In this document: one piece after another, positions 34,912 through 37,054 of the stretch
Layout: each line of letters opens with the position of its first letter
How positions within the stretch are numbered: position 1 is the first letter of the stretch
From: the human T2T-CHM13v2.0 reference genome, Homo sapiens
Strand: one strand, 5' to 3'
Assembly (NCBI RefSeq): GCF_009914755.1
Contig: NC_060933.1
DNA length: 64,000 nt
The notes under the pieces: generated by a model
The model's input: the letters and a program-made list of their open reading frames with translations, nothing else
The model's database searches: none
Told to the model about the DNA's origin: nothing
Translations under genes and position numbers: made by a program

Positions 34912-35012
34912 CAGTAGTTGTTTAAAAAAATAGAAGTTTTGATTTTAGTATATCATTGACTGTACAAGGCATCACTTTAGTAGAAGATGTTAGGGTTGAA
35001 AATTACAATAAA

Positions 35013-36830
35013 CTAGAAAACCCCATTGTCTCAGCCCAAAATCTCCTTAAGCTGAAAAGCAACTTCAGCAAAGTCTCAGGATATAAAATCAATGTGCAAA
35101 AATCACAAGCATTCCTATACACCAATAATAGAGAGCCAAATCATGAGTGAACTCCCATTCACAATTGCTACGAAGAGAATAAAATACCTAGGAATCCAAC
35201 TTACAAGGGATGTGACAGACCCCTTCAAGGAGAACTACAAACCACTGCTCAAGAAAATAAGAGATGACACAAACAAATGGAAAAACATTCCATGCTCACG
35301 GAAAGGAAGAATCCATATGGTGAAAATGGCCACACTGCCCAAAGTAATTTATAGATTTAATGCTATCTCATAAAGCTACCATTGACTTTCTTCACAGAAT
35401 TAGAAAAAACTACTTTAAATTTCATATGGAACCAAAAAAGAGCCCAAATAGCCAAGACAATCCTAAGCAAAAAGAACAAAGCTGGAGGCATCACGCTACC
35501 TGACTTCAAACTATACTACAAGGCTACAGTAACCAAAACAGCATGGTACAGGTACCAAAACAGAGATATAGACCAATGGAACAGAACAGAGGCCTCGGAA
35601 ATAACACCACACATTTACAACCATTTGATCTTTGACAAACCTGACAAAAACAAGCAATGGGGAACGGATTCCTTATTTAATATATGGTATTGAGTAAACT
35701 GGCTAGCCATATGCAGAAAACTGAAACTGGACCCCTTCCTTATACCTTATGCAAAAAGTAATTCAAGATGGATTAAAGACTTAAACCTAAGACCTGAAAC
35801 CATAAAAACCCTATAAGAAAACCTAGGCAATACCATTCAGGACATAGGCATGGGCAAAGACTTCATGACTAAAACACCAAAAGCAATGGCAACAAAAGCC
35901 AGAATTGACAAATGGGATCTAATTAAAGAGCTTCTGCACAGCAAAAGAAACTATCATCAGAGTGAACAGGCAACCTACAAAATGGAAGAAAATTTTTGCA
36001 ATCTATCTGTCTGACAAAGGGTTAATATCCATAATCTGTAAGGAACTTAAATTTACAAGAAAAAACCCTATCAAAAAGTGGGCAAAGGATATGAACAGGC
36101 ACTTCTCAAAAGAAGACATTTATGCAGCCAACAAATATGTGAAAAAAAGCTCATCATCACTGGTAATTAGAGAAATGCAAATCAAAACTACGAGATACCA
36201 TCTCACACCAGTTAGAATGGCAATCATTAAAAAGTCAGGAAACAACAGATGCTGGAGAGGATGTGGAGAAATAGGAATGCTTTTACACTGTTGGTGGGAG
36301 TGTAAATTAGTTTAACCATTGTGGAATACAGTGTGGTGATTCCTCAATAATCTAGAGCCAAAAGTACCATTTGACCCAGCAATCCAGTTACTGGGTATAT
36401 ACCCAAAGGATTATAAATCATGCTTCTATAAAGACACATGCATATGTATGTTTATTGCAGCACTGTTCACAATAGCAAAGACCTGGAACCAACCCAAATG
36501 CCCATCAATGATAGACTAGATAAAGAAAATGTGGCACATATACACCATGGAATACTATGCAGCCATAAAAAAGGATGAGTTCATGTCCTTTGTAGGGACA
36601 CGGATGAAGCTGGAAACCATCATTCTCAGCTAACTAACACAAGAGTAAACCAAACACTGCATGTTCTCACTCATAAGTGGGAGTTGAACAGGGAGGGGAA
36701 CATCACACCAGGGCCTGTCGGGGTGTGGGTTGGATAGCATTAGGAGAAATACCTGATGTAGATGATGGGTTGATGGGTGCAGCAAGCTGCCATGGCATGT
36801 ACGTACCTATATAACAAAAAAAAAAAAAAA
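35013..36830 (+). mobile_element. L1PA (PA7/PA8-like), 5'-truncated, with a shortened 3' UTR and A15 tract
   Basis: ORF2 C-terminal peptides ([43 protein letters not shown]); 3' UTR tagcattaggagaaatacctgatgtagatgatgggttgatgggtgcagc. Confidence 0.94.
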
Positions 36831-37009
36831 GGCCCAAGGGAGCTCATGTGCTCCTTCCACCAGGTGAAGACACAATGAGAAGGTGCCATCTATGAACCAG
36901 AAAATGGACCCTAACTTGACACTGAATCTCCTGGAGCCTTGATCTTGGACTTTCCAGCCTCTAGGACTGTGAGAAATAAATTTCTGTTGTTTATAAACCA
37001 AAAAAAAAA
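36831..37009 (+). mobile_element. 3'-transduced MLT1A(0)-type LTR fragment with a second poly(A) tail
   Basis: LTR sequence stops 19 nt after AATAAA (36975-36980) and is followed by A10; it lies inside the 16-bp TSD aaaattacaataaact (34999-35014 / 37006-37021). Confidence 0.85.
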
Positions 37010-37054
37010 TTACAATAAACTTACATCTCAATTAGAAGGTTCATTTGCATTTCC

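What the first reader, a model, noticed from the sequence alone, without database searches (positions are those of the whole stretch)
34999..37021. Fossil L1 3' transduction that used a MaLR LTR poly(A) signal
Seen in sequence: a perfect 16-bp direct repeat aaaattacaataaact (34999-35014 and 37006-37021) brackets three parts. These are a 5'-truncated L1PA ending in A15 (36816-36830), 169 bp of non-L1 sequence matching the 3' part of an MLT1A-type LTR (36831-36999), and a second A-tract starting 19 nt after the LTR's AATAAA (36975-36980). The LTR piece lacks both its 5' half and its U5 end, so it stops where an LTR transcript would be cleaved. Established: TPRT gives TSDs of this size, and L1 read-through transduces 3' flanks. 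Inference: the source L1 sat in sense orientation inside or beside an MLT1A LTR elsewhere in the genome and borrowed that LTR's poly(A) site. Automated annotation would list two unrelated adjacent repeats. The 169 bp acts as a barcode for an old source element and its sibling insertions.
Basis: partly seen in the sequence, partly recalled or inferred. Interest (0 to 1): 0.72.

Follow-up and report, generated by a model that had tools for sequence, protein, structure and literature searches.

The report
Old L1 insertion carrying LTR tag
A single ancient L1 jump dropped a truncated L1 plus 169 bases copied from a retrovirus-like LTR that still sits 6.3 million bases away on the same chromosome; this is an ordinary example of a known process, though the parent L1 itself is no longer there.

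Summary
A perfect 16-base direct repeat (34999-35014, 37006-37021) brackets a 5'-truncated L1, a 15-A run, 169 bases of LTR sequence and a short A tail.

I found where the 169 bases came from: an LTR of about 365 bases at chr9:96,948,346-96,948,514, minus strand, in an NTRK2 intron.
- It matches the window's piece at 91.7% with no gaps; other family copies match at 74-87%.
- The two share 5 rare variants, against 0-3 in 35 controls.
- That LTR runs on for about 45 bases beyond the point where the window's copy ends in A's, 19 bases after AATAAA. So the LTR's poly(A) site was used.

Private change is the same in the L1 part (4.3%) and the LTR piece (4.1%). That fits one event, roughly 25-38 million years ago.

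- The donor LTR carries no L1, and none lies within 150 kb upstream.
- No sibling insertions were found.
- The L1 lacks its own last 43-55 bases.

A 3' transduction from a parent L1 that was never fixed is the most likely reading (about 0.6). A reverse-transcriptase template switch is not excluded (about 0.25). This is a known kind of event and of low interest. The names L1PA and MLT1A could not be checked here.

The parts
34999..35014 (.). 5' copy of the target-site duplication (16 bases). Its last 1-2 bases can also be read as L1.
   Evidence: Exact pair. L1 homology starts at 35013/35014 in 29 of 29 copies.
35015..36818 (+). 5'-truncated L1: the last ~560 codons of ORF2 plus most of the 3'UTR. 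It lacks the 5'UTR, ORF1, about the first 715 codons of ORF2 and the last 43-55 bases of the 3'UTR, which include the element's own poly(A)-signal region.
   Evidence: ORF2p hits in PDB. 39 genomic copies at 87-91% and 39 at 82-88% for the 3' end. 29 of 29 closest copies continue beyond the window's end. 38 of 38 alignments stop at 36816-36819.
35015..36690 (+). ORF2 remnant (broken gene, given as one part). The end is approximate, extrapolated from the residue mapping.
   Evidence: Longest open stretch on this strand is 117 codons where about 560 would be expected. The two ORF2p-matching pieces lie in different frames. There are 4-5 private length changes, at least 2 of them not a multiple of three. 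Stop counts of 11-15 are unreliable because the scripts' own check failed.
36816..36830 (+). Internal run of 15 A. About 3 belong to the L1, up to 6 can be laid on the donor LTR with one mismatch, and at least 6 are untemplated.
36831..36999 (+). 169 bases copied from the 3' part of a MaLR-type LTR (positions about 158-326 of the 373 bases taken for the donor). The 5' part of about 150 bases and the last 45 or so bases of the LTR are absent.
   Evidence: 91.7% identity with no gaps to chr9:96,948,346-96,948,514 minus strand, and reciprocal best hit. 5 shared rare variants against 0-3 in 35 controls; 14 differences split 7:7. Landmarks.
36975..36980 (+). AATAAA of the LTR piece; the copy ends 19 bases downstream.
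   Evidence: The same hexamer stands at this column in the donor and in 19 of 35 family copies.
37000..37005 (+). Terminal A tract: 6 A, running into the 4 A that open the repeat.
37006..37021 (.). 3' copy of the target-site duplication.

Best explanation
One L1-driven retrotransposition event, roughly 25-38 million years ago, inserted a composite RNA copy at a TTTT/C-type nick and made a 14-16 base target-site duplication. The RNA consisted of L1 sequence, a short A stretch and 169 bases of the 3' part of a MaLR-type LTR. It was cleaved and polyadenylated at that LTR's own AATAAA site. The LTR it was copied from still exists at chr9:96,948,3xx-96,948,67x, minus strand, antisense in an NTRK2 intron, 6.33 Mb from the insertion.

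The most likely route is classical 3' transduction. A parent L1 sat in sense orientation at the A-rich site of that LTR, its transcript ran on 169 bases to the LTR's signal, and the whole was copied here and 5'-truncated. The parent L1 was a polymorphic insertion that was never fixed, so the reference shows the empty allele.

Shown: a single event, the identity of the donor, use of the LTR's poly(A) site, and equal age of both parts. Inferred: that an L1 ever sat in the donor LTR.
For: - Single event: the 16-base repeat encloses everything, and no alternative repeat pair exists.
- Donor: 91.7% identity over 169/169 bases with no gaps, against 74.4-87.1% (median 81%) for 35 other copies. The donor itself is only 75-80% identical to 38 family copies. 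Window and donor share 5 rare variants, against 0-3 in 35 controls.
- Poly(A) site: the donor continues about 45 bases past the point where the window's copy turns into A's, 19 bases after AATAAA.
- Equal age: the 14 differences split 7 window-private to 7 donor-private. Window-private change is 4.1% in the LTR piece and 4.3% (38/894) in the L1 3' part.
- Junction: it falls at one of only 5 AAAA starts among 370 positions of the donor LTR. That reads TTTT/G on the other strand, a usual kind of L1 endonuclease site.
- Background: MaLR LTRs are the commonest LTR source of human poly(A) sites, and sense LTRs are strong terminators (PMC2553571 Table 1 and PMC3517506, passages).
- Orientation: in every described L1 chimera the L1 is the 3' partner. 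That makes the rival less likely beforehand.
Against: - No L1 is at or near the donor LTR in this genome.
- No sibling carries the tag (only 40 of 3808 and 40 of 7810 candidates were scored, and closed regions are not shown).
- No L1 copy elsewhere shares the window's shortened 3' end: 0 of 29 and 0 of 38.
- The reading needs one G-to-A change at the junction, because 25 of 35 family copies and the donor have G there.
- The missing L1 3' end needs an extra assumption: a later deletion or a 3'-truncated parent.
- Donor and insertion lie only 6.33 Mb apart on one chromosome. That has a chance of about 0.4% for a random landing, while most transductions are interchromosomal (PMC9311842, passages).
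Confidence: 0.6

Rival explanations
1. Template switch or RNA-level joining, with no L1 ever in the donor LTR. Reverse transcription at the target began on a polyadenylated RNA that ended at the donor LTR's poly(A) site and copied 169 bases up to the LTR's AAAA stretch. It then jumped to an L1 RNA, either to its A tail or to the internal A-rich site where the window's L1 now ends, and went on for 1.8 kb. Ligation or trans-splicing of the two RNAs before copying would give the same product.
For: - It explains two oddities at once: no L1 at the donor, and an L1 that stops 43-55 bases short at an A-rich site.
- The junction lies at A-rich microhomology on both partners, and as few as 6 A's need to be untemplated.
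- Both parts have the same orientation and are flanked by direct repeats, as the printed features of such chimeras require (PMC2104539, passages).
- The nearness of donor and target (6.33 Mb) would be less odd if a nuclear RNA was used near where it was made (inference).
Against: - In the printed definition the 5' part is a full-length copy of a cellular RNA and the 3' part is mostly a LINE. The 2025 census describes the enzyme jumping from its primary L1 template to another RNA.
- Here the order is reversed and the 5' part is truncated.
- Such chimeras are far rarer than transductions (my own estimate, not from a call).
- An upstream promoter for an antisense transcript through the LTR is needed, and none is annotated.
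- The internal-site version needs an A run that later grew by about 6, plus a G-to-A change.
Confidence: 0.25
2. Spliced read-through, or a processed copy of a host transcript. An L1 lying further upstream of the donor LTR on the minus strand was transcribed past its A tail and spliced into the LTR just after the AAAAG.
For: The donor reads ...AAAAG|A at the junction, which could serve as a splice acceptor (my reading, no splice tool was run).
Against: - No masked block of 600 bp or more lies in the 150 kb upstream of the donor LTR.
- No L1 on chr9 near 96.9-97.1 Mb is among the 39+39 best matches to the window's L1.
- No annotated minus-strand exon ends at the LTR.
Confidence: 0.05
3. Two unrelated neighbours: an ancient LTR fragment that was already here and an L1 that landed beside it, with the 16-mer pair arising by chance.
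For: This is what automated annotation would probably show (not checked here).
Against: - The chance of the exact 16-mer pair is about 1e-5.
- No repeat pair flanks the L1 alone.
- The LTR piece is 91.7% identical to one particular LTR but only 74-87% to the rest, which an in-place ancient fragment would not be.
- The piece ends in A's at the LTR's poly(A) site.
- Its private change equals that of the L1.
Confidence: 0.02

Closest known systems
L1 3' transduction (read-through of the L1's weak poly(A) signal to a downstream one; described in PMC4859970, passages seen; the original reports by Moran 1999, Goodier 2000 and Pickeral 2000 are cited there, and I could not open them)
   Same: L1 plus A stretch plus non-L1 segment plus second A stretch, all in one orientation inside one target-site duplication. 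The segment ends 19 bases after an AATAAA and maps to a single other locus.
   Different: The donor locus holds no L1 in this genome. The L1 lacks its own terminal signal segment. No siblings were found. Donor and offspring lie 6.33 Mb apart on one chromosome.
Bipartite chimeric retrogenes made by template switching of the LINE reverse transcriptase (Buzdin, Gogvadze and colleagues; features listed in PMC2104539; L1 chimera census in bioRxiv 10.1101/2025.02.02.635956)
   Same: Two RNA copies in the same orientation, a 5'-truncated 3' part and flanking direct repeats.
   Different: Known chimeras have the L1 as the 3' partner and a full-length small RNA or mRNA as the 5' partner. Here the L1 is the truncated 5' partner, and an A stretch lies between the parts.
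LTR-derived poly(A) sites used by other transcripts (PMC2553571 Table 1: MaLR 12 conserved + 280 non-conserved of 639 LTR-associated sites; PMC3517506: sense ERV and MaLR sites are used most strongly; passages)
   Same: A MaLR-type LTR's own AATAAA ended a transcript that began outside the LTR.
   Different: The transcript here was a retrotransposition template, not a host gene's mRNA.

Membership tests
L1 3' transduction | One target-site duplication encloses the L1 and the extra segment | tested here: met
   16/16 repeat outside both parts. Inner flanks share only 4-5 bases, within the null range of 3-10.
L1 3' transduction | Two A stretches, one after the L1 and one after the extra segment (PMC4859970) | tested here: met
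   36816-36830 and 37000-37005. The first may hold as few as 6 untemplated A's.
L1 3' transduction | The extra segment ends just downstream of a poly(A) signal, while the donor locus continues | tested here: met
   AATAAA at 36975-36980 and the end 19 bases later. The donor LTR runs on for about 45 bases.
L1 3' transduction | The extra segment maps immediately 3' of a source L1 at the donor locus | tested here: not met
   The donor LTR is uninterrupted and no L1 lies within 150 kb upstream. A lost polymorphic parent remains possible, so this lowers the claim but does not exclude it.
L1 3' transduction | The segment starts with the source's 3' target-site duplication, at an L1 endonuclease-type site | tested here: inconclusive
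   The donor reads AAAA at the junction (TTTT/G on the other strand), one of 5 such starts in 370 positions. Without the source L1 the duplication cannot be seen.
L1 3' transduction | Siblings share the same tag | tested here: not met
   No other hit above 87% to the window's piece, and no other above 80% to the donor (40 scored of 3808 and of 7810 candidates). Siblings are not required for membership.
Template-switch chimeric retrogene (features i-v of PMC2104539) | (i) The 5' part is a full-length copy of a cellular RNA | tested here: not met
   The 5' part is an L1 lacking about 70% of its length.
Template-switch chimeric retrogene | (ii, iii) The 3' part is a 5'-truncated RNA copy, mostly a LINE, cut at a random place | tested here: inconclusive
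   The 3' part is a 5'-truncated copy of an LTR-bearing RNA, not a LINE. The cut lies at an A-rich site.
Template-switch chimeric retrogene | (iv, v) Parts joined directly in one orientation and flanked by direct repeats | tested here: met
   Same orientation and a 16-base repeat. 6-12 A's lie between the parts.
LINE-1 | Encodes ORF2 protein and has an A-rich 3' end | tested here: met
   PDB LINE-1 ORF2p hits at E about 1e-58. Pfam gave nothing for 5 open pieces.
L1PA (primate L1 lineage) and its numbered subfamily | Match of the 3'UTR and the last 700 bases of ORF2 to a subfamily reference (criterion quoted) | not testable with these tools
   No repeat library is available. The age of about 25-38 Myr is older than the printed 20.4 Myr of L1PA5. 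From memory that points to about L1PA6-L1PA8.
MaLR LTR, MLT1A type | Similarity to the family's reference sequence | not testable with these tools
No repeat library is available. PMC5753468 lists MLT1A0 and MLT1A1 as MaLR LTRs.
MaLR LTR, MLT1A type | Dispersed unit of LTR size with shared ends and a poly(A) signal near the 3' end | tested here: met
   38 copies align to the same stretch of about 365 bases of the donor, with ends clustering at query 34-42 and 385-406. AATAAA is at the signal column in 19 of 35 copies.
MaLR LTR, MLT1A type | TG...CA termini and a short target-site duplication at the donor copy | tested here: inconclusive
   The donor ends in CA and its first dinucleotide reads TA. 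The 5-base flanks agree at 2 of 5 (read by eye), as could be expected of a very old copy.

The most novel reading that the evidence does not exclude
The insertion is a reversed L1 chimera. Target-primed reverse transcription started on a non-L1, LTR-terminated nuclear RNA made 6.3 Mb away on the same chromosome, then switched at A-rich microhomology onto the L1 RNA's internal A-rich site. No L1 ever sat in the donor LTR, and the missing L1 3' end is the scar of the switch. That order of partners is absent from the printed definitions and from the 2025 census passages I read.
Probability: 0.25. Interest if true: 0.4.

Novelty: new member of a known kind. Interest (0 to 1): 0.2.

Why it matters
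It matters only modestly.
- The LTR sequence here is not the trace of a retrovirus-like element that integrated at this spot. It is a 169-base second-hand copy, so counting or dating it as an LTR insertion would be wrong. The copy is about 25-38 Myr old, whereas the family is about 60-110 Myr old.
- A transduced tag can still name its donor locus after tens of millions of years, even when the parent L1 itself is gone.
- The composite should be a clean presence/absence marker for catarrhine primates.
- If the template-switch reading were right, it would add a new order of partners to the known L1 chimeras.

Tried and rejected
- Looked for a retained parent L1. The best matches to the L1's 3' end are 82-88% (39 hits) and to its body 87-91% (39 hits). 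None is near the donor LTR, and none has the window's short 3' end (0 of 29; 0 of 38).
- Looked for siblings and for paralogues of the donor locus: none.
- Looked for an empty site within this genome. The right flank 37006-38200 is unique, with only itself and one weak 95-base hit.
- Looked for an L1 upstream of the donor for a spliced read-through: none.
- Pfam on five open pieces of the ORF2 remnant: blank.
- Exact count of stops and frameshifts in the ORF2 remnant: three scripts gave 2 frameshifting length changes and 11, 12 and 15 stops. The check that the second ORF2p-matching piece should fall in the tracked frame failed. I therefore give lower bounds only.
- Subfamily names: no repeat library. 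Papers gave L1PA5 as 20.4 Mya, L1PA2 as 7.6 Mya and MLT1D as 98.2 Mya (PMC3717285 Table 2), and a rate of 1.176 per site per billion years (PMC5237266). The rate of 0.17% per Myr and the ages of L1PA6-8 are recalled from Khan 2006, which is not held.
- Is this case in print? A search for transduction + LINE-1 + MLT1A found 4 papers, none about this to judge by the listing.
- Gene conversion between the two LTR pieces was considered and rejected. The similarity ends exactly at the A run and at the poly(A) site.
- The LTR's own promoter as the source of the RNA was considered and rejected by inference. The piece starts right at the A-rich box, not some 25-30 bases after it.
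Full report
What is there. Reading 34900-37150 shows, in order:
- the 16-mer AAAATTACAATAAACT (34999-35014);
- L1 sequence;
- a run of 15 A's (36816-36830);
- 169 bases that are not L1 (36831-36999) and hold AATAAA at 36975-36980;
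- six A's (37000-37005);
- the same 16-mer again (37006-37021).

The 16-mer occurs only at these two places in the 64 kb, even with two mismatches allowed. Shuffles give a mean of 0.16 matches. From local base composition, an exact recurrence within 2 kb has a chance of about 1e-5.

One event or two. If the L1 had landed beside an LTR fragment already in place, a repeat pair should flank the L1 alone. The 40 bases before the L1 and the 40 after the A run share at most 5 bases. The flanks of the LTR piece alone share at most 4. Random 40-mer pairs of the window share 3-10, most often 5. The outer flanks share 16. L1 homology begins at 35013 or 35014 in 29 of 29 copies. That gives the 1-2 bases of overlap usual at the 5' end of truncated L1 insertions. 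The repeat opens with AAAA after a G, which corresponds to a TTTT/C nick on the other strand. This is close to the printed endonuclease preference of TTTT/AA, more loosely YYYY/RR (PMC4859970, passages).

The L1 part. Two open pieces match solved human LINE-1 ORF2 protein structures at residues 834-935 and 1029-1150 of 1275, with E about 1e-58. Pfam found nothing in five pieces. The fragment therefore holds about the last 560 codons of ORF2 and the 3'UTR. It lacks the 5'UTR, ORF1 and about 715 codons of ORF2.

The remnant is broken:
- The longest open stretch is 117 codons.
- The two matching pieces lie in different frames.
- There are 4-5 private length changes, at least 2 of them not a multiple of three.
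- My stop counts (11-15) failed their own check and are not reliable.

All 29 closest copies run on for a further 43-55 bases, to their own signal region and A tails. None of 38 further alignments runs into the window's A tract. The shortened end is private to this copy or to its lost parent.

The LTR piece and its donor. A search of the reference with 36740-37005 gave 40 scored hits out of 3808 candidates. After the self hit, the best was chr9:96,948,345-96,948,520, minus strand, at 91%. The other 38 were at 79-87%. Over the 169 bases, that locus differs at 14 positions with no gap (91.7%). Ten other copies are 81-87% identical to the window and 79-86% to that locus, and the highest value among the others is 89%.

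The reverse search with the donor LTR gave 38 family copies at 75-80%, and the window's piece at 91%. Against 35 background copies (median 81%, range 74.4-87.1%), window and donor share 5 columns with a base that at most 20% of the background carry. Each of the 35 controls shares 0-3. The 14 differences split into 7 window-private, 7 donor-private and 0 ambiguous. This is the pattern of a copy taken from that LTR, followed by equal drift in both.

Read in sense, the donor is a whole LTR of about 365 bases. The copied part is positions 158-326 of the 373 bases I took. About 150 bases lie before it and about 45 after it. 33 of 35 family copies extend at least 50 bases upstream of the copied part, and 19 of 35 extend at least 30 bases downstream. 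The window's copy ends in A's 19 bases after AATAAA, where the donor goes on. The RNA that was copied was therefore cleaved at the LTR's own poly(A) site.

What is at the donor locus. It lies in an NTRK2 intron, antisense to the gene, 6.33 Mb from the insertion, on the opposite strand.
- There is no L1. Family copies align straight through the junction position.
- The mask table shows no block above 430 bp between 96.940 and 96.975 Mb.
- There is no cluster of 600 bp or more in the 150 kb upstream on the minus strand.
- At the junction the donor reads AAAA-G-A before the copied part. 28 of 35 copies have the AAAA and 25 of 35 have the G.
- AAAA starts at only 5 of 370 positions of the LTR, so the junction at such a site is unlikely to be chance.

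Age.
- The window-donor distance is 0.088 (Kimura two-parameter; 9 transitions and 5 transversions, 3 touching a CpG). That gives 38 Myr (interval 19-59) at the printed rate of 1.176 per site per billion years (PMC5237266). It gives 26 Myr at 0.17% per Myr, a rate I recall from Khan 2006 but could not read.
- Private change in the L1 is 38 of 894 (4.3%) against copies with the same kind of 3' end, and 79 of 1472 (5.4%) against a mixed set. In the LTR piece it is 7 of 169 (4.1%).
- The two parts are thus the same age, about 25-38 Myr. That is older than the printed 20.4 Myr of L1PA5 (PMC3717285 Table 2).
- A perfect 16-mer pair and an uninterrupted A run are not surprising at that age (probabilities 0.26 and 0.53).
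- The LTR family is much older. Pairwise identity of 75-80% means about 0.13 substitutions per site per lineage by my own arithmetic, or about 60-110 Myr. That is in line with the 98.2 Mya printed for the sister subfamily MLT1D.
- As a virus remnant, then: it is real LTR sequence of the MaLR kind, but no LTR element ever integrated here.

How it arose. The structure matches the printed description of a 3' transduction: two A stretches and a segment ending at a downstream signal. MaLR LTRs are known to be frequent and strong terminators. The missing piece is the parent L1. The simplest account is that it was a polymorphic insertion at the LTR's A-rich site that produced this offspring and was then lost, leaving the empty allele.

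The main rival is a template switch or RNA joining between an LTR-terminated RNA and an L1 RNA. It would explain both the empty donor and the shortened L1 end. But it reverses the order of partners in every described L1 chimera and needs an unannotated antisense transcript. I put transduction at about 0.6, the template switch at about 0.25, spliced read-through at 0.05 and two independent insertions at 0.02.

Verdict. The event is of a known kind and of low interest. Two oddities remain open: the nearness of donor and target, and the L1's missing 3' end.

Noticed in passing
window, one open piece of the L1 ORF2 remnant: Besides LINE-1 ORF2p, the piece matches PDB chain 9d2f_J, 'Cilia- and flagella-associated protein 61', residues 286-325 (E 3e-8). 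That deposited protein seems to hold an L1-derived stretch.
   Followed up: no
L002 (chr9:96,947,845-96,948,250 or so), directly 3' of the donor LTR on the minus strand: A long AT-rich tandem repeat of about 400 bases follows the donor LTR.
   Followed up: no
window 34999-37021, within the intron 25382-41605 of lncRNA LOC107987083: The composite lies in sense orientation in the lncRNA's intron, so the LTR-derived AATAAA at 36975-36980 faces its transcription. No annotated exon ends there.
   Followed up: no
chr9:90,618,831-90,618,999 versus chr9:96,948,346-96,948,514: Donor and insertion are 6.33 Mb apart on one chromosome, with a chance of about 0.4% for a random landing. Printed surveys say most transductions are interchromosomal.
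   Followed up: partly
window 35015-36486 versus 36487-36815: 35 of 39 best L1 body matches break off at query 1439-1495, well before the end of ORF2 as mapped from the protein hits. This may be a subfamily-variable stretch or a private rearrangement; I did not look into it.
   Followed up: no
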